In this document: piece after piece, positions 1,156 through 12,601 of the stretch
How the letters are laid out: each line of letters begins with the position of its first letter
How positions within the stretch are numbered: the first letter of the stretch is position 1
DNA from: Candidatus Hodarchaeota archaeon
GTDB taxonomy: Archaea; Asgardarchaeota; Heimdallarchaeia; Hodarchaeales; Hodarchaeaceae
Direction of reading: 5' to 3'
DNA: 12,601 bases
NCBI GenBank assembly: GCA_016840035.1
Contig: JAEOTC010000152.1
Coordinates: 1 to 12,601, forward strand
Translations under genes and position numbers: made by a program
Notes under the pieces: model-generated
Seen by the model: only the letters and a program-made list of their open reading frames with translations
Database searches by the model: none
What the model was told of the DNA's origin: nothing

Positions 1156-4100
1156 TTGAGAACAATGTCTAATAGCTTCACTCATTCTCGGTCTAAGAAT
1201 TCTAGTAAATTTCCTCCGATGTCGATTTTAAGTAGTATCTTACGAAGTACTGAACCACCTGACGAGGATTATTCAACTATACCGTATCTAGAGTTTTTGA
1301 AATCCTACACTTCCGAGATTGACCTAGATTATTTTCAAAACCGCCGTCCTTTGATCGAGCATGAATTACTTAGTAACTCTGGTCATCAGTTTTTCTTTCT
1401 TAGAGGAAAAACTGCTCGTGGTAAAAGTGAGGCTATGTGTGTTAATACCCTCCATAAAACATTAGAGAAAGATGCTTATGCTATTGTTTTGGCTCATAAT
1501 CGCGGTTTAGCAGAGGAACTCAAGGAAAAATTTGCTACATACATGAGATTACTCAGAGATAATCGTCAAATTGTCGCTTACTATAAGGACACTGAAGAAG
1601 CAAATAAGTTGATTCGAGATCAGGTGCGTGGGGGGAAAGATCAAGTAGCAGTGTTTATTATGACTCCTTTTATGCTACTTGGGTCATTTACTAGTTTTTC
1701 ATTAATGGGTCAAATTGAACACAAAGAAGTATTAGATCAACTAGGTGATTGTGAAATGTGGGGAAAAGTCTTTGCAAGTCATAATATCCAGTGGGCTAAC
1801 AAGCTTTCCTCACCTTCCATTATCTTAATAGATGAAGTTGATTCTTATCCGCTTCCTGCTTTACTTTGCTTGTCCATCTTCGTACGTTATCTAATTTGGA
1901 AAAAATCTGATATAAAAGTTGTACTTTCCTCGGCTACTGTCACCAATCCCGATCGTTTTACTAACCTCTTTTTTGGCTCAGATAGTGACTATCTAGATCT
2001 AACAGGTTTGGGTAGACGGGGTACCACTAATATCAACGTCTATTGTGAGGATGAACCCCAGGAGTTGTTAGATTACTTTATTCAAGCAGTAAAATCATAT
2101 ATTGAAGAGGAACGGGCCAGAGTCAAACCAGGAAACAACTACATTCCTCAAAAAGTGATTGTATTCTTGAATAATAAGAGAGATATTGATCTTAAAGCAC
2201 TGATAGGTACTTTTTCTGATTATTTTATTACTGCTCATGGTGACATGCAAACTAAAAAAGTCACAGAACGCATTCGTGAGTTTCGAAGTAAACGTCTTAA
2301 GATCTGCTTGGTTGCTACAAGCATCATTCAATCAGGATTAGATATTCCAGATGCATCGTGGGTAATTTTTTATGGTATTCCCCGTAAAGATCGTGAATAT
2401 CTCCAACAGCGAGGACGGGCTAATCGTGTTTCCACTCAAGAGGGAAAGATTGATATTATTCTACGATCAGTGAATAAATTTGAAAAGGACAAAGCGACTA
2501 ATATCAATGCTTTGGCTGAATTTATTTTACAGGAAGAACCCCCTCCTTTTCAAACCCCATATTATACCCCATTAACATTACAATATGCCATTGTCATGGG
2601 AGTGGTGTTTGGTTATTGGGATATAATTAATAGGCTGAAGAAGGGGTTTTATGGAAGAAATGATTCATTTTTCCGGCAAGAAGTTGATCAAGCCTTTCTT
2701 AAATTACTTGACGAACAAGTAGTAACAGTAGGATCTAATGAGATGATTTATCCTACTGATAAAACAAAGAAGTGGATCCATGCCTTTCCCAAACGATTTG
2801 GAGTTGAACTTTACAAGGTTGTGTTTCGTACAAAGACATCACAGGAGAAGAAACTTGGAACAATTAGCCTGTCAGAACTGTTTCGTAAAGGATTACCGAG
2901 TCAAACACTGGCCTACATTGATGACACCTATCAAGTTATTGAAATCGACCCAAAGAAGAAGATTGTCTATGTAAAAAAAGGATACCTTGAATTATACTCT
3001 GAACTTAATGAAGTGAAAAAAACAACTACTGCTACTGACGTAATAGCCCATGATCAGAAAATGGGTGTAGCACTTGTTGAAGTCATTGAAACAGAGAGAG
3101 TAATAACAAAAGATGTTCTAGTAGGATCCTTCGACTTAGATATAGTGCCTAACAGACAAGATTATAGGTTTACAGGCATATTTCTCAAAACGAAACAAAT
3201 TACTATTCCAATCGAAAGGAAAATCCGTCAATACTGTGGCCAACTTGATATTGATCGCTCAGTTTTTCAATCAACTACGTGCTATCATGAAGAACTGGGA
3301 ATAGGAATGTTACTAATTGATACTAGCAGACTTGATCTAACAAGCATGTTGTATCACCAATGGATAAAACCAAAAAACACGCGAGAAAAAACTCGGAAGA
3401 AAAAATCAAGAAAGAAAACGAGGAAGGGGAAAAAAAATACAACTGGAAAGACTCAAACGCTTTATCAGGAAACAAAGAACCGATTTCATCAATATTTACG
3501 TGATTTTCATTTCACTGTTGGATGTCTAGCTGATCTGCATTTGAATGGACAACCAATCACAGTAAATGATCAGGAAGTCGACTTTCGTCAATACTGCCAC
3601 ACATTAGTAAAACCTTTGAAGAAAGCCTCGGTAATTATTTTTCTTGGGGATACCATTGATAGAATAGCAGCTAATGATTTTACTATGGCAAAAGCTCAAC
3701 TGTTCATACTATACGAAGTCTTAGATGAACTAGACTTGCTTTATAAAACGATTTTTGTCCTAGGGAATCACGATTATGATAAGCGATATTTTCGATGGCG
3801 AAAAACAATAAATATCGCGATAGAACTCCGGTGGACATTAAAACCTTATCAAGATTTGATTTTCATCCATGGGCATAATTCAAAAATGGAACAATATTTG
3901 GATAAACCAGAAATAACTGGAAAAGAAATTAACAACTGGCGAACGGTTTTTGTCAAACCGGTGAAAGGGAAAAGAGTCCGAAAAGATGACTTTCTAGTGG
4001 CCGGTCATCTTCACAAAGGGTTTTGTAACCGTGACCAGCATTCTCTTGGTGTTCCTTCTGCGAGGAAATATTTGTCATCTCCTCAAAACGAAGGATGGAT

Positions 4101-4182
4101 TGGGCTGTTTGGTTTTGGTACTTTTGATGATCCTTGGGAACCATTTATTGCTATTGAGAATCCTTACAAATTAGAGATATGA
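1156..4182 (+). CDS. SF2 helicase (YprA/MrfA/SftH/Hrq1-like) fused to a C-terminal calcineurin-like metallophosphoesterase
   Basis: Helicase motifs: GKTARGKS (1405-1428), TPFML, IDEVDSY (DEVD 1831-1842), SSATVTNP, HGDM, ATSIIQSGLDI, QQRGRANR, and the MrfA-like segment LGTISLSELF..YQVIEID..IVYVK (2854-2976). MPE motifs: DLH (3532), GDTID (3646), GNHD (3763), HGH (3868), GHLH (4003). The start may be ATG 1165. Confidence 0.85.
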   Translation: MRTMSNSFTHSRSKNSSKFPPMSILSSILRSTEPPDEDYSTIPYLEFLKSYTSEIDLDYFQNRRPLIEHELLSNSGHQFFFLRGKTARGKSEAMCVNTLHKTLEKDAYAIVLAHNRGLAEELKEKFATYMRLLRDNRQIVAYYKDTEEANKLIRDQVRGGKDQVAVFIMTPFMLLGSFTSFSLMGQIEHKEVLDQLGDCEMWGKVFASHNIQWANKLSSPSIILIDEVDSYPLPALLCLSIFVRYLIWKKSDIKVVLSSATVTNPDRFTNLFFGSDSDYLDLTGLGRRGTTNINVYCEDEPQELLDYFIQAVKSYIEEERARVKPGNNYIPQKVIVFLNNKRDIDLKALIGTFSDYFITAHGDMQTKKVTERIREFRSKRLKICLVATSIIQSGLDIPDASWVIFYGIPRKDREYLQQRGRANRVSTQEGKIDIILRSVNKFEKDKATNINALAEFILQEEPPPFQTPYYTPLTLQYAIVMGVVFGYWDIINRLKKGFYGRNDSFFRQEVDQAFLKLLDEQVVTVGSNEMIYPTDKTKKWIHAFPKRFGVELYKVVFRTKTSQEKKLGTISLSELFRKGLPSQTLAYIDDTYQVIEIDPKKKIVYVKKGYLELYSELNEVKKTTTATDVIAHDQKMGVALVEVIETERVITKDVLVGSFDLDIVPNRQDYRFTGIFLKTKQITIPIERKIRQYCGQLDIDRSVFQSTTCYHEELGIGMLLIDTSRLDLTSMLYHQWIKPKNTREKTRKKKSRKKTRKGKKNTTGKTQTLYQETKNRFHQYLRDFHFTVGCLADLHLNGQPITVNDQEVDFRQYCHTLVKPLKKASVIIFLGDTIDRIAANDFTMAKAQLFILYEVLDELDLLYKTIFVLGNHDYDKRYFRWRKTINIAIELRWTLKPYQDLIFIHGHNSKMEQYLDKPEITGKEINNWRTVFVKPVKGKRVRKDDFLVAGHLHKGFCNRDQHSLGVPSARKYLSSPQNEGWIGLFGFGTFDDPWEPFIAIENPYKLEI

Positions 4183-4331
4183 AAAATCTGTTTAATTCGA
4201 GGCTCAATGTGTGAGAAAGAGAATTTCCTCATTCTTCTAATAAAACCATTAACATAACGAAAGCTGGGAGGTTAAATTTTCCTCTCAAATTAGGACAGTA
4301 AATACCCCTGACCCCCAAATAAGAAGAAGGG

Positions 4332-5126
4332 ATGAGAGATTTCATGGATAATGACACTGTTTCGACAAACCAGAAACATCAACTAGCCTATCAACAGAAA
4401 ATCCTTTCTCTATTTGAGCAAATGATGAAACGTTCCCGTAAAATTAAACGAACGGGGAAACCACAGTTTCAAGGGCATCAAGGGACAGATTTCTCAATCA
4501 GTGGGGTGATTGAAACACAGGAGAAGATCCTAGTTATTGAATCGTGTGCGGATCGGTGTTTATCACTAGAAGACATAGAGGTAATTGTTCAAGGGCAATT
4601 TGATCCACTGAGCAAGGAAGAGGAGATTATTGCTATCATAGACAGTAAAAATGGGTTTGAAAAACAAGTTCTTACTAGCTTCCCCTCAGTACATTATCCA
4701 TTGGTACTAACAAGTCAAACACAATTGATTACAACCAATATTCTAGCTCCTCCAATAACCAAGGGTTTTAAAATAATTGACGAACTGTTCCAGATTTCTC
4801 GAACTAGTAAACCCATTTTTCTTTCATCAGAGCTTAAGTACGAACTTGTTGCTTTTATTACTGATGGTACAACGCGATTACGTCTATATTTTGCATTATT
4901 ATCTCGGCCAAAGTACATCTATGAACTTGCACGTGAACTTAAGACATCACCCGCTTCAGTTTATCGTGCAATCCATGCCTTGAAGAGTAAGAAACTCCTT
5001 ATTTGTCTTAATCCTAAAAGTTCACGGAGAAAATACTACCAACTAACTCCACTAGCCCTAGCTTTACGAGAGGACCTCATGGCATTTAATAATCGAAATC
5101 AGTTAGATACTGACAAGGCGGATTAG
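4332..5126 (+). CDS. Probable transcriptional regulator: degenerate restriction-endonuclease-like N-domain plus C-terminal winged HTH (ArsR/MarR-like)
   Basis: The C-terminus RLRLYFALLSRPKYIYELARELKTSPASVYRAIHALKSKKLL..RRKYYQLT is a typical wHTH. The N-terminus GHQGTDFSISGVIE..ILVIESC resembles the Mrr-like GxSG..hD..hhhEcK pattern. Purine-rich AAGAAGGG lies just before the ATG. Confidence 0.7.
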   Translation: MRDFMDNDTVSTNQKHQLAYQQKILSLFEQMMKRSRKIKRTGKPQFQGHQGTDFSISGVIETQEKILVIESCADRCLSLEDIEVIVQGQFDPLSKEEEIIAIIDSKNGFEKQVLTSFPSVHYPLVLTSQTQLITTNILAPPITKGFKIIDELFQISRTSKPIFLSSELKYELVAFITDGTTRLRLYFALLSRPKYIYELARELKTSPASVYRAIHALKSKKLLICLNPKSSRRKYYQLTPLALALREDLMAFNNRNQLDTDKAD

Positions 5127-5174
5127 AACTTTCAACTATCAACCAGAAATAATGAAAAGACCAAATGACATGAT

Positions 5175-5197
5175 GGGATAACTAGGGGATAACTAGG
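5175..5197 (+). repeat. Perfect tandem 11-bp direct repeat (GGGATAACTAG)x2
   Basis: Read directly: 5175-5185 and 5186-5196 are identical. Intergenic. Confidence 0.9.
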
Positions 5198-5242
5198 TGG
5201 AAGGGTTATGATATGGTGATGATAAGGAGGAGACAATCAGAA

Positions 5243-5252
5243 TTTAAATATA
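5243..5252 (+). promoter_or_regulatory. Putative archaeal TATA box for the large protease gene
   Basis: TTTAAATATA about 90 nt upstream of ATG 5340; SD-like GGTGA at 5327-5331. Confidence 0.4.
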
Positions 5253-5339
5253 ACTGCAAGAATAGTAATCTAACTCCAAAAATTCAGTGAATATATTTTT
5301 TGGAGAGAAAAAACATAAAAGTCATTGGTGAAATAAAAA

Positions 5340-8300
5340 ATGAACACCCCACAAATAAAAAAAAAGAAAAAACCAATTAAATATTTACTTGTAGGAACGC
5401 TTCTCCTCATTCTGATCATAGGAGCCATTCCTCTTAAGGAAGTGGATCTTAATGATAGTTCCGGTAAAAGAATGGTAGTAGACTCCTTATCTTTACCTTC
5501 CTCACAAGTAACTGCCGTAGAGGACACGGAAATAACAGAAGAAGCTCTTCCAGCTGATCATGATATCACATCTTTCTCTGAAAGTGCAGTAAAAGGAAGT
5601 GTTAGTCAACAGATTAGAATTCCTGACCCGACTGGGAACACCGCGGGTTATATAATAAATGACACTACTGAAAGTTTCGAACTTATGCAGTCGCGTGGAC
5701 AAACGAGTCGACATTGGTATGATCCCGTCATGGATGAATATCAATATTCTTCTGATAGCTTAGTGAATCAAACAGGCACTCTAATTGAAACAGATTGGGT
5801 AACAGAGGATGAATTTTTATATCGTTTTTTCATTCAGTTCCAAACAGGTTCGAGAGTCACGTTTAATAGTTATTTAGATATTGCTACCTACATCACTACT
5901 TTGGACCCAGCTTCTATTTGGGCTGTAGGATTTGAAGGGTTTTCTGGGGCAATGGCTTTTTATCTAAATTCTGCGGATTTAATATCGGGGCATGGACAGT
6001 ATGTGTATTGGCCCCGTCTTCTTAACGGCCAGCTTACAGCATTTGATCATCCTATATTTGCATTTTACCCTCATCTTTATGTAAAAATCGAATCTGAATG
6101 GATAGATCAAATCCTCTGTGATCGCTCACTCTTTTCAAATGGATTGATACCATCAATAGCCAGTTTAGATTTTTACGCCTCAGAGACCGAATTTGGAATT
6201 ACCTATACAGTTTCAAATGCTCAAATCCAGGACACAACATGGACCATTAAACATGGATTTAAATATAGAATGAATAACCAACAATTCCATAAAATAACAG
6301 AATTGATATGTCATAATCAAGATCTTGACGATGTTAGTTTGACATACGATATTACACATAGCCCTCAAGCCTCCAATACTGATTTTGAACCAGAGACCTA
6401 TCGAATAAAGAATAGTACAGATCAAATTCTCCTTCCTGCAAACATGCCATGGAATGCAGAGGAACGTCTGGATGAGTTCGAGACCAATATAGAAATTATT
6501 TCAATTAACAAACAAGGTTTAAGATTCTCCTTCGGAGATTTAGAATTAAGTGGGTTCACTAAACCGATACTAGAATTAATATCACAGAGTATGCCTGATG
6601 AGTCATTCAAGATGGTGTTACGTGCGGGAATGACAGGCCTTGGATCTCTTCAAAAGGAACAATGGCTTCAAATTGATCCCTCTACAGGAACCATTTATTC
6701 TACCGATAATTACGATCTGTACAAAGCTTGTGGTGCAGGTTCATATACAACTGGTGATACGGTTATGAAAGTGGGAATCGTCGGAGGTTATCCTACGTCC
6801 TCAGCCGCCCTTGCATATATGGCATTTAATACAGGGATTAATGATATTATCGATTCGATCAGTAGTCCTTCTATGCAAATATATTATACGACAGGGGACA
6901 CATTTGAATCTGACGAGGGAATCTCTTTACGAGTATACAATATTGTGGGTTCAGGTAATGGGGCAGATAGTAATACGCTCAAAGAAGATTCTCAATCTTA
7001 TTCACTAGGAACCAATTCTTTAGAAACTCTAGTATGGGGTCACCAATCCTCTGCTGGATATGCTTCAGCAGATACGAATGACCTAGACGATCTACTGGAA
7101 TATTGGGCATTGTATCGTGGATCATCGGAAAACTGGGTTAGTTTTCGTTTGGAAGGCTATGGGATGGATGCATTTACATCTGATGCAGCAATCTTTTCTG
7201 ATTCCCAGACGTCTGGAACTTCTCAAGATCCCAAGTTAAGTTTTACTTATGCATTTTCCGAAACCGCTTCAATCTCAGGATACGTTACCGACACTGACAA
7301 TACATCTTTGGCTGGTATCCATGTGGATTTATATCAAGATTCTACTAGTCTAAAGGTAGCAGGAGATCTTACTGATTCAAATGGTTTCTACGAATTTTCG
7401 ATTGAACCCTCCTCTAGTACACATCTTCTCTATGCCTGGGATCCTGATTATCTCACTCAAAATATCGGTCTCACTCCACGAAATCATAAAGAAGTTAATT
7501 TTACTCTTGCTGCAGAAACTATTCCTTCCCCTCAAGCCCCACTGGGTTGTCATGATCCCTCCAATTATACTGGAGGAAGTAGTTGGCTGAATGTAACCTC
7601 AGCTTATTCAAATGGGACGTATTATGCTATAGGCAATGATTCCACAAATAATATTACCTATAATACATACAACTGGGATGTTCCTGGTAATGATACACAG
7701 GATTACGGCAAGATCAAAGGTGTATATGTCCTGATCCATTGGAAATCGGTTATTAATGATCGGGTAGCGGTCCGATTACGCTGGAGCTCTAGTAATGGTG
7801 ACTGGCACAATCTAGCCGCAAATAGCTCATGGAACCTTGCTAAACTTAATTACACAGATGCCGCTACTTGGTATTTGAACAAAATCAATTCAATTAACTT
7901 TCGGGTTGAGATTGGTTTCTTATCCCAGAATTCTGTGGATGCTGTACTTATCGATTGGGTAGGTACCTTAGTTGAGTACTATGATGTTCGTGCTGAGGAT
8001 ATCGTTATTGCCTCTGGTTCGTCTAAAGGAATAAATCAAACATTTGGGTTGAAATTCAAGAATTATGGTACTCTTACCCCCAGCACAACTGTTGATGTAA
8101 AAGTAAAAATCGAGGCCCTAAATTATACAAATTATCATACTTGGGTAGATGAGGAGTATCACTATTTAATTGGTACACTTGATCCTGGTGAAACCTCAAG
8201 TGTTCCTATGTATAGATATTTCCCCTATATCTTTCAAGGCTACAATGATTCTTCCTGTGAGAATTGGGATGGTTGGTTTGCTATGAATATTGGTGTGTAC

Positions 8301-9047
8301 AATATAACCGAGGTTTTTGTATACACATCCGTCTGGAATTCGACTACAAGTTTTTCAGATGAATTGTTTGAAGTACAAGTTCAAGGGGATCATCATAAGG
8401 TTTTTTGTGTCATTTTAGAGGATCCAGATTTCGGAAATCGGTATGGTTCATGTGAAAACTGGGATGGATCAAATTTATCTGATGGATATAGTGGTAGTGA
8501 TTGGAAGTACCAAGCTTGGAGTTCTGTTGATTGGTGGTATAACCAGAGACAAGATATTAATATTGACTTAATCCCGCTCGTTGACTCATACAACTTTACG
8601 ACTAATACTACCGAGCTTCCAGGAGATACACATGAAGGGTATGCTCGTGCAAAAGATTTTCTAGGATTATTCGGGAACTGGACTGAAGCTAGTGGAACTT
8701 CTGCAGCTAATCATGGATTTGATTTAATTTGGTGTCTTATGGGATTTGTTAGTGGTCCTGCTCATGGTGGTTATAATCGAGTTATGATAAAATGCGTCGT
8801 GGCAAGTTCATATTGGAATTATCCGTATGAAAATGATTCAATGTTCAAAACTCTTCAGCATGAACTAGGTCATGTATTTCATGCATTACATATCAATAAA
8901 CCACCAATGAACTTATCTATGGATGATCCAGATAATCCTTGGGTTATGAGTTATAAGCGGATCTGGAATAATTGGGATTGCCACACTTTCATTGATTACA
9001 ACTTATCTGTTATTTCAGATAATGCAGATAAATTTGATGGAGTATAG
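5340..9047 (+). CDS. Large exported multidomain glycoprotein with C-terminal metzincin-like zinc metalloprotease
   Basis: Basic plus hydrophobic N-terminus (KKKKKPIKYLLVGTLLLILIIGAIPL). A beta domain ends in QIDPS (~6672); a DNRLRE-like domain ends in FSDSQ..DPKLSFTY (~7250); a carboxypeptidase-regulatory-like domain starts ASISGYVTDTDNTSLAGIHVDLY; an Ig/CARDB-like module spans 7953-8375. HELGHVFHALH (8859-8891) with Met-turn-like WVMSY. More than 20 N-x-S/T sequons. Confidence 0.82.
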   Translation: MNTPQIKKKKKPIKYLLVGTLLLILIIGAIPLKEVDLNDSSGKRMVVDSLSLPSSQVTAVEDTEITEEALPADHDITSFSESAVKGSVSQQIRIPDPTGNTAGYIINDTTESFELMQSRGQTSRHWYDPVMDEYQYSSDSLVNQTGTLIETDWVTEDEFLYRFFIQFQTGSRVTFNSYLDIATYITTLDPASIWAVGFEGFSGAMAFYLNSADLISGHGQYVYWPRLLNGQLTAFDHPIFAFYPHLYVKIESEWIDQILCDRSLFSNGLIPSIASLDFYASETEFGITYTVSNAQIQDTTWTIKHGFKYRMNNQQFHKITELICHNQDLDDVSLTYDITHSPQASNTDFEPETYRIKNSTDQILLPANMPWNAEERLDEFETNIEIISINKQGLRFSFGDLELSGFTKPILELISQSMPDESFKMVLRAGMTGLGSLQKEQWLQIDPSTGTIYSTDNYDLYKACGAGSYTTGDTVMKVGIVGGYPTSSAALAYMAFNTGINDIIDSISSPSMQIYYTTGDTFESDEGISLRVYNIVGSGNGADSNTLKEDSQSYSLGTNSLETLVWGHQSSAGYASADTNDLDDLLEYWALYRGSSENWVSFRLEGYGMDAFTSDAAIFSDSQTSGTSQDPKLSFTYAFSETASISGYVTDTDNTSLAGIHVDLYQDSTSLKVAGDLTDSNGFYEFSIEPSSSTHLLYAWDPDYLTQNIGLTPRNHKEVNFTLAAETIPSPQAPLGCHDPSNYTGGSSWLNVTSAYSNGTYYAIGNDSTNNITYNTYNWDVPGNDTQDYGKIKGVYVLIHWKSVINDRVAVRLRWSSSNGDWHNLAANSSWNLAKLNYTDAATWYLNKINSINFRVEIGFLSQNSVDAVLIDWVGTLVEYYDVRAEDIVIASGSSKGINQTFGLKFKNYGTLTPSTTVDVKVKIEALNYTNYHTWVDEEYHYLIGTLDPGETSSVPMYRYFPYIFQGYNDSSCENWDGWFAMNIGVYNITEVFVYTSVWNSTTSFSDELFEVQVQGDHHKVFCVILEDPDFGNRYGSCENWDGSNLSDGYSGSDWKYQAWSSVDWWYNQRQDINIDLIPLVDSYNFTTNTTELPGDTHEGYARAKDFLGLFGNWTEASGTSAANHGFDLIWCLMGFVSGPAHGGYNRVMIKCVVASSYWNYPYENDSMFKTLQHELGHVFHALHINKPPMNLSMDDPDNPWVMSYKRIWNNWDCHTFIDYNLSVISDNADKFDGV

Positions 9048-9100
9048 ACTTCAATAAACACTCATTAACTTTGATATACAAAGTAAGGGAGTTCCTACAT

Positions 9101-9113
9101 CTTTTTTTTTCTT
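9101..9113 (+). terminator. Oligo-T tract, putative archaeal intrinsic terminator
   Basis: CTTTTTTTTTCTT about 55 nt after the stop of the protease gene. Confidence 0.4.
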
Positions 9114-9222
9114 ACAAACCAAATTTATTATTACTGTCTTAGAAAGAGAAAGGTTAATAAAGTGAAAAACAGAGTATATCATAAACAGGACTAATGAAAT
9201 ACTTGCATAATTGTGCTTCAAG

Positions 9223-9858
9223 ATGCAAAAAAAGTACACTTCCAAGAAAACTATCAATATGTTCTTAATACTATTCATATTATCTGAGATAATACTCCTC
9301 ACTTCCTCTGGTTCAATTTTATCAGTTCCCAATAGCGAAATTAGTGTAGAGGTCATCGGTTATTGGGATTCAGACCTACCATTTCAATACCCTGTTGAAA
9401 CACCTGATAACTGTACCTCTTATATACCTATTACCTTCGATGCTGGTTTTCCATACACATCTGTTGTATTTCGGATTATTTATAATGGAATAGGTGAAAT
9501 AAAGATTCTAAGAGCAATAGTATGGGAGGAAATTACATGGTGGGATTGTACTTGGAATTGGACGACTCCAAAATCCTTAACTGTGAACCAACGAATTCAA
9601 TCTGGTTCTTATTTCGACTTTGCCATAACAGACCGTTCATTTATTCTTGATCAATCCAATACAATAATTTTTACACAAATTGAGTGGGAATATCAGGGGG
9701 TCATTTATAGAACCAAGCTTGAGGTGGAAATAAGTCCAAATCTTACCAATTACCAATCATGGACATCGGATCAAGGAGTAGCAGCTGATATTTCCTTTTT
9801 ATTACTTTCTCTGTTAGGAATAATACTGTGGTTACGAAGACACCTTATGAAACGATAG
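9223..9858 (+). CDS. Exported beta-rich protein with C-terminal membrane anchor; candidate protease partner/inhibitor (family X, copy 1)
   Basis: ATG 9223 (track start TTG 9211). Basic then hydrophobic N-terminus; C-terminal TM plus basic tail FLLLSLLGIILWLRRHLMKR. Homologous by eye to the ORF at 12013. Confidence 0.75.
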   Translation: MQKKYTSKKTINMFLILFILSEIILLTSSGSILSVPNSEISVEVIGYWDSDLPFQYPVETPDNCTSYIPITFDAGFPYTSVVFRIIYNGIGEIKILRAIVWEEITWWDCTWNWTTPKSLTVNQRIQSGSYFDFAITDRSFILDQSNTIIFTQIEWEYQGVIYRTKLEVEISPNLTNYQSWTSDQGVAADISFLLLSLLGIILWLRRHLMKR

Positions 9859-9915
9859 ATCTAATATGAAGGGTAATTTTTTCAATAATCCAAACAGTAA
9901 CATCCCACTTTTTCT

Positions 9916-11070
9916 TTGGTTCTTCGAATACAAAGGTTTCCTGACAATTATCCTCATTCTCTTTTCGATTGGGTCGGTACTCGCGTTGAATACACAGACA
10001 TTCGACCTGTGGATATTACGTTTGCTTCTGGTTCATATAAAGGGACAAACCAATCATTCGGATTGAAATTAAAGAATTTCGGATCAGTTACGGTTTCTAC
10101 GGTCCATGCTCGGGTAAAAATTGAAGCACTAAATTATTCTAATTATCATATTTGGGTAGAAAAAGAATTCTCTTACTCAATAAGTACTCTCGAACCAAAT
10201 GAAACCTCCAATTCATTATATCGGTATCTTCCTTATGTTTTTCAAGGATATAATGAATCATCGTTTGAGACTTGGCGTGGTTGGTATGCCATGAATATTG
10301 GAGCTTATGAAATCACTCAAATCTTTCTTAATTCAACTAAGGGAACGTGTACTACAACCTTCTCAGACGAAATATTCGGAGTCACATCTTACACTCATAA
10401 AGTGTTTGTGCCTGCACTTGTATATGATGGTAATTCTGTTGATTCCGTAATAGATAGCTTCGATGATTTAGAGGTGAATGAAATGTACGTAAATACTTCG
10501 ACGGGGTGGAGTTCTACAAGTTTTTCAACATATTTCTCGACAGATTTTCTCCCCATATTAACCTTTGAATCAAATGATAGCACGTCCAACGTTAAATTTG
10601 ATACAACATGGAACAACTGGTTAAGAAATGAAGCAAGAATACTTCTGGGTCTAGAAGGTAACTGGAGTAATGAAATCGGTACAAGTGCAGAAAATCACGG
10701 ATTTGATCTTTTATTTGGTACAATTGACGACCTAGGATCAGTAGGAGTAGCGAGTTCAAATATGTTCTCTGTTGATGATGACCACATTAGTGGATCAAGA
10801 GTCTATTTGCACGAGATTCTTCACACCTACATGCATAATGCTACAGTGGAGACTCCATATAGTAATGTTGAGCACTTAGAATACTATCCAATTTACAACG
10901 CTACATACAACGGAACTCACTGGGTGAATTGGGTATGGAATGATACCTACCAGATTCATAATTATTTTGGAGGTTATATTATGGGCGGTGATCCAACTTG
11001 GTATCTTCATCTCGATACAGAGGAGCGAGTAACTGATTATATCAATGAATATGATGGATATGACGGATAA
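9916..11070 (+). CDS. Orphan C-terminal module (Ig-like + HExxH zinc protease) paralogous to the C-terminus of 5340..9047; 5'-truncated cassette or pseudogene
   Basis: From DWVGT (9967) to 10383 it is about 60% identical (86/141 by manual alignment) to 7953-8375. Shares HKVF and LGLxGNWxxxxGTSAxNHGFDL; has HEILH (10810-10824) and YIMG. No ATG or signal peptide in frame at the 5' end; in-frame TAA at 9898. Confidence 0.82.
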   Translation: MVLRIQRFPDNYPHSLFDWVGTRVEYTDIRPVDITFASGSYKGTNQSFGLKLKNFGSVTVSTVHARVKIEALNYSNYHIWVEKEFSYSISTLEPNETSNSLYRYLPYVFQGYNESSFETWRGWYAMNIGAYEITQIFLNSTKGTCTTTFSDEIFGVTSYTHKVFVPALVYDGNSVDSVIDSFDDLEVNEMYVNTSTGWSSTSFSTYFSTDFLPILTFESNDSTSNVKFDTTWNNWLRNEARILLGLEGNWSNEIGTSAENHGFDLLFGTIDDLGSVGVASSNMFSVDDDHISGSRVYLHEILHTYMHNATVETPYSNVEHLEYYPIYNATYNGTHWVNWVWNDTYQIHNYFGGYIMGGDPTWYLHLDTEERVTDYINEYDGYDG

Positions 11071-11110
11071 AAACAGATTAAAGACTCTCAAAGTGATTTA
11101 CGCAATGAGA

Positions 11111-11140
11111 TTTCTTTTCTCCTCCTCCTTTTTTCTCCCC
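11111..11140 (+). terminator. Pyrimidine/T-rich tract, putative terminator
   Basis: TTTCTTTTCTCCTCCTCCTTTTTTCTCCCC, 40 nt after the stop at 11070. Confidence 0.35.
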
Positions 11141-11171
11141 GATAATTCCTTGTCAACCAACAAAATACAGG

Positions 11172-11188
11172 GGGAAAATCTTTATATA
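11172..11188 (+). promoter_or_regulatory. Putative BRE + TATA box for 11248..11955
   Basis: Purine run GGGAAAA followed by TTTATATA (11181-11188), about 60 nt upstream of the ATG. Confidence 0.5.
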
Positions 11189-11247
11189 GAGGAATAACAT
11201 ACAATCCTCAGATTTATACCAGTAAGGAACGTTTTCCCAAGAAGATC

Positions 11248-11955
11248 ATGAAAATGAAATATTTCACAGTCACCTTCATTAGCGTTTTCTTTTCACTTGC
11301 CCTTCTTTCGCAAACTATCCTCATCACTGGTATTGATGATACAGCTCTCCCTACTTCCTTCAATAATCCCGTTAACTATACATTGGGAGTCCAAGTCGGC
11401 GATGAGAAAATCTACGTTGTGGAAAAAGCCTTCCGTATACTTCCAAATATTGGAGCTGTAAATAATTCCTTTTGGACAATTTTTGATGGATATCTTGCTC
11501 TGAACCAAGAATTAAAAGTAAAAATTATTGGGATTGAAAATGAGAATTTCTTCTTTGACATCCTACTCAAAGGAGATAACGGTGAATATCATCTGGAGAA
11601 GACATATAGTGTTTCACGAAAATATTACATCAATCCAGACAGATATTTTCTTACAACTACTAATCAGACCTTACTTGAAAACATATTGAATGAAAAGACT
11701 TTCTCATACGAAATAAAAGGCAAGGTATTGAATGTCACCAGGAGGTCACGTGATTTTTATCATAGTGTGTTTTATGATCTCAAAACAGGCTTCCTAATCC
11801 GAGCCTATCAAAGATCATGGAATTCAGAGCAAGTATTGAGCGAATCTGAAATCCTCATGAAAACAACAGCCGGAATTATCCGTTACCACTTCTCGTTTAG
11901 CTGGTCGTTCTGGTTCATCCTCATCATCCTCGGTTATCGAAAATTCAACCAGTAA
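11248..11955 (+). CDS. Exported protein of unknown function with signal peptide and C-terminal TM/basic tail
   Basis: Signal MKMKYFTVTFISVFFSLALLS; segments LGVQVGDEKIYVV and YDLKTGFL; C-terminus WSFWFILIILGYRKFNQ. Confidence 0.75.
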   Translation: MKMKYFTVTFISVFFSLALLSQTILITGIDDTALPTSFNNPVNYTLGVQVGDEKIYVVEKAFRILPNIGAVNNSFWTIFDGYLALNQELKVKIIGIENENFFFDILLKGDNGEYHLEKTYSVSRKYYINPDRYFLTTTNQTLLENILNEKTFSYEIKGKVLNVTRRSRDFYHSVFYDLKTGFLIRAYQRSWNSEQVLSESEILMKTTAGIIRYHFSFSWSFWFILIILGYRKFNQ

Positions 11956-12012
11956 AATATCAAATTGTATAAAACTGTAGTAAGCTTAATTTCCAAAGAA
12001 ATCTACAAAGGA

Positions 12013-12600
12013 TTGAAGCTATTCTTTCTCAAATCAGTGGTTTTTCTGCAAGCACTTAGCAAATACTTGGTAATAATTCTGGTTGTATCTGTCATTACTT
12101 CAAAAGATATAAGATCCAGTCAAAATATTGCGACAATAGAAACTTTCACAATTGAAATTCTGGGTTGTAGCAACTGGATTGATTTCATACCAGGTCCTTG
12201 TCCTCCTGGAGTTAGTCAATGTGGGTATGACACTCAAGGTTATGATGAAATGAACTTTAACTTGACTTACTTCGGTTCCTTCTCTATTAACATATCTCAA
12301 ATCTCTGTTTGGCAAAAATTGCGCTTTATTGGAATCTCTTGGAATCACTCAGCTTATTACCCCATTCCTGTGCCGAATGTTTCTTTAAAAACTGGTGACA
12401 GTTACTATTATACCGTAAGAGATATTTATACCTTCTATGATGCAGTGAACCTCTATCCTCACGGCCCATTCTATACGCAGATTATGGATGATAAAAACAA
12501 CACCTTCTGGGTAAGAACAGTAGCCCCTGATGATATTACAGTATTTAATAACACTGAACTACTTGAAAATACACATCTTTACCCAGCTATTCGGAGTACT
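12013..12600 (+). CDS. Exported protein, diverged paralog of 9223..9858 (family X, copy 2); 3'-partial
   Basis: Not in the ORF track. The frame is open from 11956 to the window end: (M)KLFFLKSVVFLQALSKYLVIILVVSVITS..FTIEILGCSNW..YDEMNFNLTYFGSFSINISQISVWQK..SWNH..NVSLKTGDSY..FYTQI..WVRT. Start uncertain (TTG 11965 or 12013, GTG 12037). Confidence 0.78.
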   Translation, partial: MKLFFLKSVVFLQALSKYLVIILVVSVITSKDIRSSQNIATIETFTIEILGCSNWIDFIPGPCPPGVSQCGYDTQGYDEMNFNLTYFGSFSINISQISVWQKLRFIGISWNHSAYYPIPVPNVSLKTGDSYYYTVRDIYTFYDAVNLYPHGPFYTQIMDDKNNTFWVRTVAPDDITVFNNTELLENTHLYPAIRST

Positions 12601-12601
12601 C

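What the first reader, a model, noticed from the sequence alone, without database searches (positions are those of the whole stretch)
5340..12601. Candidate archaeal polymorphic surface-protease system: full-length protease, orphan C-terminal cassette and cognate partner genes
Seen: the order is [full-length exported protein ending in Ig + Zn-protease] - [membrane-anchored partner X1] - [start-less copy of only Ig + Zn-protease, with divergent catalytic region] - [exported Y] - [X2, diverged paralog of X1]. Known: Rhs, CdiA and MafB loci have this layout, where orphan CT/immunity cassettes share a conserved stretch with the main gene and can replace its C-terminus by recombination. Inference: this is an analogous system in which extracellular metalloproteases are diversified (competition, predation, S-layer or virion attack) and neighbouring surface proteins act as specific inhibitors or partners. 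I do not know of a described archaeal system of this type.
Basis: partly seen in the sequence, partly recalled or inferred. Interest (0 to 1): 0.85.

Follow-up and report, generated by a model that had tools for sequence, protein, structure and literature searches.

The report
Truncated copy in mosaic surface-protease island
An Asgard archaeon carries, in a swappable genome island, a large cell-surface zinc protease followed by a headless second copy with a different catalytic domain; the family has clearly swapped domains during its history, but nothing shows that these two copies exchange now or that the neighbouring small proteins are inhibitors.

Summary
The described gene order is real. 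The 1235-aa gene (5340-9047) encodes, in order:
- a signal anchor;
- a ~550-aa scaffold;
- a CarboxypepD_reg domain;
- a CBM-like jelly roll;
- an FnIII/Ig domain;
- an adamalysin-type metzincin.

The ORF 9916-11070 has no ATG and no signal peptide. It starts with only the last jelly-roll strand (DWVGT), then has an Ig domain 61% identical to the main gene's and a metzincin only 25% identical. All catalytic motifs are intact.

The family is nearly confined to one Hodarchaeales genus (23 clusters among 1.8 billion proteins). Ig and catalytic trees conflict strongly (AU tests), with crossovers at the Ig|catalytic junction. The same scaffold also carries legumain-like heads.

Against an active Rhs-like switch:
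- The shared stretch is 73% identical in DNA, with a longest exact match of 14 nt and saturated dS.
- No further cassettes lie to the right.
- The downstream anchored proteins fall into at least five families that do not track protease class, and about half of their relatives sit elsewhere.

Verdict: a silent 5'-truncated tandem paralog in a domain-shuffling surface-protease family. It resembles polymorphic toxin systems and VARTIG (Makarova 2021), but toxin or immunity function is unproven.

The parts
4332..5126 (+). wHTH regulator (264 aa, C-terminal PadR/ArsR-like winged helix) that travels with the protease module
   Evidence: Weak Pfam wHTH hits at residues 180-244. Homologs at 43% identity sit directly upstream of both G020 protease loci, and one at 30% sits next to the C7 locus.
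5340..9047 (+). Full-length surface protease (1235 aa). Domains: signal anchor 5379-5438; N scaffold 5607-7259; CarboxypepD_reg 7269-7508; CBM-like jelly roll 7539-7979 (its last strand holds DWVGT, 7953-7967); FnIII/Ig 7986-8399; class-B metzincin 8400-9044 (HELGH 8859-8873, third His 8889-8891).
   Evidence: The closest full-length relative is P0034 (43.5% overall; Ig 68-76%; catalytic 45-56%).
9211..9858 (+). X1: small protein with an N-terminal leader and a C-terminal TM anchor (probable ATG at 9223)
   Evidence: No Pfam or NCBIfam match. Relatives are C155_214 (35%), C7_231 and X2. The Atlas gives only a weak lead to CARDB/DUF7490-type archaeal surface proteins (0.87).
9859..9915 (+). 57-nt spacer between X1 and the truncated copy. 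It holds four in-frame stops; X1's own TAG at 9856-9858 makes five. No remnant of upstream protease domains is detectable.
   Evidence: tblastn finds no other family fragment in the window.
9916..11070 (+). 5'-truncated protease copy (384 codons, TTG only, no signal peptide). Parts: vestigial last jelly-roll strand 9916-9987 (DWVGT 9967-9981); FnIII/Ig 9988-10392; class-A metzincin 10393-11067 (HEILH 10810-10824, EHL 10870-10878, YIMG 10975-10986).
   Evidence: It has 12 N-glycosylation sequons, 3.1 per 100 aa against 0.3-0.4 in the cytoplasmic neighbours. It keeps 25 of 25 conserved catalytic columns.
11248..11955 (+). Y: small protein with a leader and a C-terminal TM anchor
   Evidence: One clear relative lies next to a protease tip in G010 (24%, E 8e-10). 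Other relatives lie elsewhere. The Atlas places it near unnamed Thor/Bathy/Promethearchaeota clusters (0.93).
11965..12601 (+). X2: a distant member of the X family. It runs 13 codons into contig C288 (225 aa in all).

Best explanation
The region 4332-12601 is a replaceable island between conserved flanks in a Hodarchaeales-type Asgard archaeon.

What the island encodes:
- It carries a genus-restricted family of membrane-anchored, glycosylated surface proteases.
- Each is built as scaffold + CarboxypepD_reg + CBM-like jelly roll + FnIII/Ig + adamalysin-type metzincin.
- The genes are arranged as regulator - protease - small anchored protein.

How the family evolves (shown):
- It evolves by duplication, truncation and decay.
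- It also evolves by recombination at domain borders. The Ig domain and the catalytic head have different histories, and the scaffold also carries other heads.

Origin and status of the second copy (inferred):
- It is the downstream member of a tandem pair like the one on contig C7.
- It lost its promoter, its signal anchor and about 2.5 kb of 5' coding sequence by a deletion that ended inside the jelly roll.
- As encoded, it cannot give an exported enzyme, so it is a silent module holding an intact class-A head.
- It may have served, or may serve again, as a recombination donor. It does not exchange with the neighbouring gene at present.

Likely function (inferred):
- The enzymes most likely cut extracellular or surface (glyco)proteins.
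- The anchored neighbours are co-expressed surface proteins of unknown role.
For: Architecture and fold.

Truncation inside a domain:
- CBM-type matches to the main model run to residue 146-148 and include the DWVGT strand.
- Ig matches to the short copy begin only at residue 25-29.

Parallel tandem locus on C7, with two complete genes: 706-aa protease - X relative - 1200-aa protease - anchored protein, next to a wHTH gene.

Variable island:
- In G002 the orthologous flanks (helicase 74%, 993-aa gene 65%) enclose a subtilase and an anchored protein instead.

Mosaicism (Ig% / catalytic% identity):
- main-orphan 60.8/24.6
- main-P0026 34.3/38.9
- P0025-P0026 56.8/23.3
- P0024-G008a 54/20
- orphan-P0024 26.5/46.4

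AU tests:
- Catalytic data reject (main, orphan) at p 4e-83 and (P0025, P0026) at p 1.5e-6.
- Ig data reject (main, P0026) at p 6e-6 and (P0004, P0024) at p 1e-4.
- Sliding identities switch sharply at the junction.

Other heads on the same scaffold: Peptidase_C13 in C194 and P0035.

Decay in the family: five profile hits carry in-frame stops, and there are fragments of all kinds.

No current exchange: pS is 0.73 (saturated), dN is 0.27, and the longest shared exact word is 14 nt.
Against: - Truncated copies look constrained. The orphan's catalytic domain is not faster than those of its full-length relatives and keeps every conserved column.
- The G020 short copy has dN/dS 0.15 against its paralog at dS 1.26, with no rate excess.
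- This is unexpected for old relics. It fits either recent truncation or selection on silent modules.
- A TTG start exists, so translation cannot be excluded.
- The substrate and the role of the anchored proteins are pure inference.
Confidence: 0.55

Rival explanations
1. This is a polymorphic-toxin-like conflict system. The scaffold presents an exchangeable protease head. The truncated ORF is a selected silent cassette that replaces the main gene's C-terminus through the shared Ig stretch. X1, Y and X2 are cognate surface inhibitors (immunity proteins).
For: - The layout is main gene, then anchored gene, then 5'-truncated copy with a shared stretch, then anchored genes.
- Family-wide crossovers lie exactly at the Ig|head junction.
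- The scaffold carries several head types.
- Truncated copies show no clear relaxation of constraint.
- Protease tips remain next to X, Y and Z relatives in G017 and G010.
- In G020 the short copy and its Z gene were duplicated together (68% and 61% identity).
- The same logic has been proposed for VARTIG (PMC8416519).
Against: - The homology arm is 73% identical with a longest exact match of 14 nt and saturated dS, so exchange between these two copies is not recent and is hardly feasible by homologous recombination.
- There is only one cassette, and none lies beyond X2.
- Class-A heads are followed by Y, an X relative, Z or an unrelated protein, so partner family does not track head class.
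- Only 4 of 8 X relatives and 2 of 6 Y relatives lie near a protease gene or tip.
- Pfam found no known delivery or pre-toxin module.
- Other truncated copies are cut at other points, and some family copies carry stops.
- No close strains were available to show the same N-terminus with swapped heads.
Confidence: 0.22
2. The short ORF is an independent gene. It is translated from TTG 9916, perhaps co-transcribed with X1, and works as a stand-alone Ig + metzincin protein.
For: - The frame is open for 384 codons, all catalytic motifs are present, and there is no rate excess in the catalytic domain.
- TTG is the first available start codon of other ORFs in the window, such as X2.
- Another complete short form, P0026 (405 aa), lies on a 5.8-kb contig.
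Against: - It has no signal peptide, yet it has 3.1 sequons per 100 aa like exported proteins.
- It begins with an orphaned β-strand of a jelly-roll domain.
- The first ten residues have a mean pLDDT of 43 and the next ten 66.
- No ribosome-binding motif is seen upstream, and the spacer is only 57 nt.
- The apparent 384-aa short form P0002 is only an internal-Met gene call of a protein of at least 750 aa, P0024.
Confidence: 0.1
3. Assembly artefact: the tandem arrangement is a chimeric join of two paralogs within a metagenome-assembled genome.
For: The genome is a 293-contig MAG, and the window is a whole contig.
Against: - The copies are only 73% identical in DNA, too different to confuse an assembler.
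- Both flanks are syntenic with G002.
- A parallel tandem locus exists on C7.
Confidence: 0.03

Closest known systems
Polymorphic toxin systems with orphan C-terminal cassettes (Rhs, CdiA, MafB; Zhang et al. 2012, PMC3482391)
   Same: - A long exported protein is followed by a 5'-truncated copy of its C-terminal part that keeps a conserved stretch.
- Small genes follow each copy.
- The heads have a different history from the rest of the protein.
- Metallopeptidase heads are known in polymorphic toxins (Tox-MPTase1-5).
   Different: - Pfam matched no RHS or filamentous repeats, no known pre-toxin motif and no dedicated secretion module.
- Export relies on a Sec-type signal anchor only.
- The heads after the jelly roll and Ig are homologous metzincins, not unrelated toxins.
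- The homology arm is old (73% nt identity).
- There is only one cassette.
- The downstream genes encode exported anchored proteins whose families do not follow the head class.
VARTIG modules of Thermococcales (Makarova et al. 2021, PMC8416519)
   Same: - It is an archaeal lineage-restricted variable island.
- A large signal-peptide protein with Ig-fold domains has smaller genes aligning to its C-terminal part.
- There is evidence of recombination in the C-terminal region.
- Variable downstream membrane proteins are present.
- Its function is unknown and its layout resembles polymorphic toxin systems.
   Different: - The organism is an Asgard archaeon, whereas the authors found no counterpart outside Thermococcales.
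- The variable end here is an enzymatic metzincin head behind a comparatively conserved Ig domain, not a hypervariable Ig domain.
- No DNNxxxGG sorting motif was seen in the sequences read here.
- No sequence comparison with arCOG07710 was made here.
Adamalysin/ADAM-type metzincins (M12B fold; atrolysin C 1DTH, ADAMTS, ADAM17, ulilysin, fragilysin)
   Same: - The catalytic domain fold matches (Z 12.6, 159 residues aligned, rmsd 3.6).
- HExxH is present, with a downstream His and a Met-turn-like YIMG.
- The main gene has the canonical HExxHxxxxxH spacing.
   Different: - Sequence identity is 7-14%.
- The Pfam Reprolysin_3 match is below cut-off (14.4 against 22.4 bits).
- The Gly of HExxHxxGxxH is replaced.
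- In the family alignment, class-A heads carry an insert of about 7-15 residues before the third ligand.
- No recognisable prodomain, disintegrin or Cys-rich region was matched by Pfam.

Membership tests
Polymorphic toxin system (Rhs/CdiA/MafB type) | The C-terminal head has a history different from the N-terminal part, with crossover at a defined junction | tested here: met
   The Ig and catalytic trees conflict. AU p values range from 4e-83 to 1e-4. Identity switches at about residue 1020 of the main protein. The scaffold also carries Peptidase_C13 heads.
Polymorphic toxin system (Rhs/CdiA/MafB type) | Closely related strains carry near-identical N-termini with unrelated C-termini | not testable with these tools
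   The closest full-length relative is only 43.5% identical (P0034).
Polymorphic toxin system (Rhs/CdiA/MafB type) | Stand-alone 5'-truncated cassettes lie downstream of the main gene and share a recombinogenic conserved stretch | tested here: inconclusive
   One truncated copy is present and shares 7947-8308 / 9961-10316. However, the stretch is only 73-74% identical, the longest exact match is 14 nt and dS is saturated. No further cassettes follow.
Polymorphic toxin system (Rhs/CdiA/MafB type) | A cognate immunity gene lies directly after each toxin or cassette and co-varies with it | tested here: inconclusive
   An anchored-protein gene follows every protease gene whose downstream flank was available. 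However, at least five unrelated families are used without regard to head class, and 4 of 8 X relatives and 4 of 6 Y relatives lie elsewhere. Binding was not tested.
Polymorphic toxin system (Rhs/CdiA/MafB type) | Known delivery or presentation modules (RHS/FHA repeats, T5-T7SS signals, pre-toxin motifs) | tested here: not met
   Pfam finds only CarboxypepD_reg above its cut-off. NCBIfam finds nothing.
VARTIG (Thermococcales) | A large Ig-fold surface protein with smaller genes in the island that align to its C-terminal region, plus variable membrane-protein genes | tested here: met
VARTIG (Thermococcales) | Homology to arCOG07710/arCOG14200 and the DNNxxxGG C-terminal motif | not tested
   No arCOG sequences were at hand. 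The motif was not seen in the sequences read here.
Metzincin clan (adamalysin-like fold) | Catalytic fold of the clan | tested here: met
   VIA-align gives Z 12.6 to 1dth and Z 12.5-11 to ADAMTS, ADAM and ulilysin for orphan residues 159-383. It gives Z 9.1 to ADAM17 for main residues 1016-1235.
Metzincin clan (adamalysin-like fold) | HExxHxxGxxH/D zinc motif and Met-turn | tested here: inconclusive
   HExxH is invariant. The main gene has HELGHVFHALH, with correct spacing but Gly replaced by His. The orphan has HEILH followed by a 14-residue stretch before the His of EHL. YIMG (orphan) and VMS (main) align as a possible Met-turn. The ligands were not verified in 3D coordinates.
Pfam Reprolysin_3 (PF13582, M12B-like) | Score above the gathering cut-off | tested here: not met
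   The main gene scores 14.4 bits against a cut-off of 22.4. The orphan has no hit.

The most novel reading that the evidence does not exclude
Hodarchaeales run a polymorphic surface-protease system of their own. A conserved scaffold presents exchangeable protease heads (metzincin classes A-D and legumain-like C13). Promoter-less 5'-truncated head modules are kept intact by selection as recombination donors. Each head is linked to a surface-anchored protein that protects the producer. This would be an Asgard counterpart of bacterial polymorphic toxin systems and of VARTIG, with an extracellular protease as the weapon or recognition device.
Probability: 0.2. Interest if true: 0.8.

Novelty: new variant of a known kind. 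Interest (0 to 1): 0.45.

Why it matters
If the truncated heads are real donor modules, this would be a polymorphic, recombination-diversified surface system outside bacteria and Thermococcales. It would sit in Asgard archaea, the archaeal group usually placed closest to eukaryotes (my own background knowledge). Its head has an ADAM-like fold.

It would also offer a testable handle on conflict or self/non-self recognition in Asgard archaea, about which very little is known.

Even on the sober reading, the finding documents three things:
- an uncharacterised, genus-restricted family of large surface metzincins;
- a clear case of domain-level recombination between the Ig domain and the catalytic head;
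- an island where sister species hold different secreted proteases.

All of this is relevant to how these sediment archaea handle extracellular protein.

Tried and rejected
- **Contig look-up and reads.** The junction-in-reads test and the contexts of P0026, P0025, P0024 and P0034 could not be obtained.
- **Collection scans.** Two metagenome-contig scans (A3, P0013) and one genome-contig scan (P0034) found nothing. Alignment A2 was too diverse for pattern design.
- **P0002.** This 384-aa protein, starting 12 residues before DWVGT, looked like a second independent short form. I rejected that reading: its cluster mate P0024 shows the Met is internal to a protein of at least 750 aa.
- **P0007.** It looked cut by a contig end. 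P0025 shows a real in-frame fusion to an AAA-ATPase fragment instead.
- **Cassette-site idea from earlier notes.** The GGCTGGATT core gave 4 one-mismatch hits against 2.1 expected, so it is not enriched. No intergenic repeat family is present.
- **dN/dS for main versus orphan.** Synonymous sites are saturated, so only dN much smaller than dS can be stated.
- **Domain databases.** Pfam and NCBIfam gave nothing for X1, Y, X2 or the orphan. A PDB sequence search with the main protein gave nothing.
- **Foldseek.** Foldseek against PDB returned only Ig-domain matches. VIA-align was needed to see the metzincin.
- **Y versus the C7 242-aa neighbour.** No similarity was found.
- **Promoter and terminator scan.** It uses a bacterial consensus and was uninformative.
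- **Makarova 2019.** PMC6509191 is not held.

Full report
**Organism and contig**

The window is the whole contig C109 of a 4.3-Mb, 293-contig, 36% GC assembly. Database relatives of its proteins are labelled Candidatus Hodarchaeales/Heimdallarchaeota. Earlier notes of this scan also call the genome Hodarchaeales-type.

The last 127 nt of C109 equal the first 127 nt of contig C288. In the sister genome G002, orthologs of the window's helicase (74%) and of C288's 993-aa gene and its four neighbours (64-66%) lie on one contig. The join is therefore real.

Beyond X2, which ends after 225 aa, come conserved genes and no further protease modules. In G002 the two conserved flanks enclose a Peptidase_S8 subtilase and a 466-aa anchored protein instead. 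So 4332-12601 is a replaceable island.

**Observation**

The five genes are present as described.

Main protein:
- It has a signal anchor and CarboxypepD_reg at 644-723.
- An AF2 model of residues 734-1235 (pLDDT 73.6) shows a CBM-type jelly roll. Matches run from model residue 1 to 146-148 (Z 10.8) and so include the strand that carries DWVGT.
- The same model shows a metzincin (ADAM17, Z 9.1).

Second ORF:
- An AF2 model (pLDDT 79.6, pTM 0.80) shows an FnIII/Ig domain at 25-159.
- It shows an adamalysin-type metzincin at 159-383 (1dth Z 12.6, ADAMTS-1 Z 12.5, ulilysin Z 11.0, archaemetzincin Z 9.5).
- It has no ATG. Its frame opens at 9901, and five in-frame stops (X1's TAG at 9856 plus four in the spacer) lie upstream of it.
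- It has no signal peptide, yet it carries 12 N-glycosylation sequons, a density typical of the exported proteins here.
- Its first 24 residues are the orphaned last strand of the jelly roll. It is therefore a gene cut inside a domain, not a designed short protein.

**The family**

Against 1.84 billion representative proteins the second ORF finds only 23 clusters. A profile search finds the module in 15 of 22 genomes of the genus. The single-protein search found it in none of the 20 genomes sampled from other genera of the class.

All members, including the truncated copy, keep NHGFD, HExxH, a later His, a YIMG-like Met-turn and a C-terminal YDG. I distinguish four head classes:

| Class | Members | Zinc-motif feature |
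|---|---|---|
| A | orphan, both C7 genes, G004, both G020 genes, P0004, P0024, P0025 | insert before the third ligand |
| B | main, P0026, P0034 | HELGH with canonical spacing |
| C | G008 | |
| D | P0016, P0020, P0022, P0032 | |

**Domain exchange**

Identities by domain:

| Pair | Ig % | Catalytic % |
|---|---|---|
| main-orphan | 60.8 | 24.6 |
| main-P0026 | 34.3 | 38.9 |
| P0025-P0026 | 56.8 | 23.3 |
| orphan-P0024 | 26.5 | 46.4 |
| P0024-G008a | 54 | 20 |

P0025 and P0026 have neighbouring NCBI accessions, so they probably come from one MAG (my inference).

- Catalytic-domain data reject (main, orphan) at p 4e-83 and (P0025, P0026) at p 1.5e-6. (P0024, G008a, G008b) is borderline at p 0.048.
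- Ig data reject (main, P0026) at p 6e-6 and (P0004, P0024) at p 1e-4, but not (main, orphan) at p 0.33.
- Sliding identities switch sharply at the Ig|head junction near HKVF.
- P0034 is a full-length relative with the same Ig type and class-B head as the main gene (Ig 68-76%, head 45-56%). The main gene's combination is therefore old.
- The ~550-aa scaffold also occurs with Peptidase_C13-like heads (own contig C194, P0035, weakly P0028), with a CARDB-containing C-terminal part (P0029) and with a 1000-aa unknown tail (P0033).

The family is modular. All of these events are ancient at the sampling available.

**The truncated copy**

Contig C7 of the same genome has a parallel locus with two complete genes: 706-aa protease - X relative - 1200-aa protease - anchored protein, next to a wHTH gene. 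The simplest origin of the window's layout is the same tandem pair with a 5' deletion in the second gene.

Other truncated copies are cut elsewhere:
- The G020 short copy is cut inside the Ig domain.
- P0026 starts 45 residues before DWLG.
- P0025 is cut in the middle of the jelly roll and fused in frame to an AAA-ATPase fragment.
- Isolated tips of about 26-100 residues sit in C184, G010, G017, G002 and G004 with no other family remnant beside them.
- Five profile hits carry in-frame stops.

This is birth-and-death turnover.

Even so, the truncated copies look constrained:
- The orphan keeps 25 of 25 conserved head columns.
- Its head is not faster than full-length relatives (unique changes 18-35 against 22-32). 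Its Ig domain is mildly faster than the main gene's (23 against 9, p 0.013).
- The G020 short copy has dN/dS 0.15 at dS 1.26 against its paralog, with no rate excess.

Either the truncations are recent or silent modules are under some selection. I cannot decide between these.

**No present exchange**

The shared stretch is 73-74% identical in DNA. The longest common word is 14 nt, pS is 0.73 (saturated) and dN is 0.27. This is protein-level conservation of an old duplicate, not a recent conversion tract.

**The neighbours**

A gene for a leader + C-terminal-anchor protein follows every protease gene whose downstream flank was available. These proteins fall into at least five unrelated groups:
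- X (X1, X2, C7_231, C155_214);
- Y (Y, G010_260);
- Z (the two G020 genes at 61% identity, G010_176);
- the C7 242-aa protein;
- the G008 442-aa protein.

Class-A heads are followed by Y, an X relative, Z or the 242-aa protein, so family does not follow head class.

Of the 8 X relatives, 4 lie next to a protease gene or tip. Of the 6 Y relatives, 2 do. That is far more than chance for so rare a family, but the link is not obligatory. Nothing tested bears on inhibition. The Atlas only places them among archaeal surface proteins.

**Comparison with known systems**

The layout matches the definition of polymorphic toxin systems: C-terminal domains varied by recombination with stand-alone cassettes, with metallopeptidase toxin heads among the known types (PMC3482391). 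It lacks their delivery modules and shows no proven cognate immunity.

The closest archaeal analogue is VARTIG. That module has a large Ig protein, smaller genes aligned to its C-terminus, recombination and variable membrane proteins. Its authors found no counterpart outside Thermococcales (PMC8416519). No paper in the library pairs Hodarchaeales with metalloprotease, and none describes Asgard metzincins of this type.

**Verdict**

The best reading is a silent 5'-truncated tandem paralog inside a domain-shuffling, island-borne family of surface metzincins. The full conflict-system reading stays possible, at about 0.2.

Noticed in passing
window 1156-4182 (+): A 1008-aa fusion of a DEAD/Helicase_C helicase with a C-terminal calcineurin-like phosphoesterase (Metallophos). 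Orthologs at 65-74% are in G002 (two copies) and G004. More distant paralogs, some split, are in G001, G013 and G005.
   Followed up: partly
L050 (G002:C21) 10418-14076: At the position syntenic with the window's island, the sister species has a 709-aa Peptidase_S8 subtilase and a 466-aa anchored surface protein. This is a different secreted protease in the same slot.
   Followed up: partly
P0025 (NCBI MHA1979410.1), residues 1-40: The C-terminal piece of an AAA-family ATPase is fused in frame to the middle of the jelly-roll domain of a class-A protease copy. This is a rearrangement joint in another Hodarchaeales MAG.
   Followed up: no
G000:C184:41218-41445; L023 7946-8164 (G010); L028 1103-1231 (G017:C125); G002:C80:69618-69707; G004:C188:8608-8772: Isolated, well-conserved C-terminal tips of the protease (about 26-100 residues, with the core GYIMGG..TWYLHPDTE.RV..ID.YDG and no HExxH) have no other family remnant nearby. 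Several lie just upstream of anchored-protein genes, and six tips are called as ORFs in public data. Whether they are relics or small functional products is open.
   Followed up: partly
L081 (G000:C194) 2-2485 and 3140-5299: In the window's own genome, the same N-terminal scaffold (33% identity to main residues 92-663) carries a Peptidase_C13 (legumain-like) head. It is followed by a 720-aa NosD/beta-helix protein with a C-terminal anchor.
   Followed up: partly
G000:C155:2392-8090: A cluster of five genes encodes leader + C-terminal-anchor surface proteins. It includes the closest paralog of X1 (35% identity) and has no protease gene on the contig.
   Followed up: no
L017 (G020:C23) 5423-7528: At the G020 short-copy locus, a wHTH regulator is followed by two small polytopic membrane-protein genes (216 and 206 aa, 22% identical to each other). 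They occupy the place of the missing ~900-aa 5' part of the protease gene.
   Followed up: no
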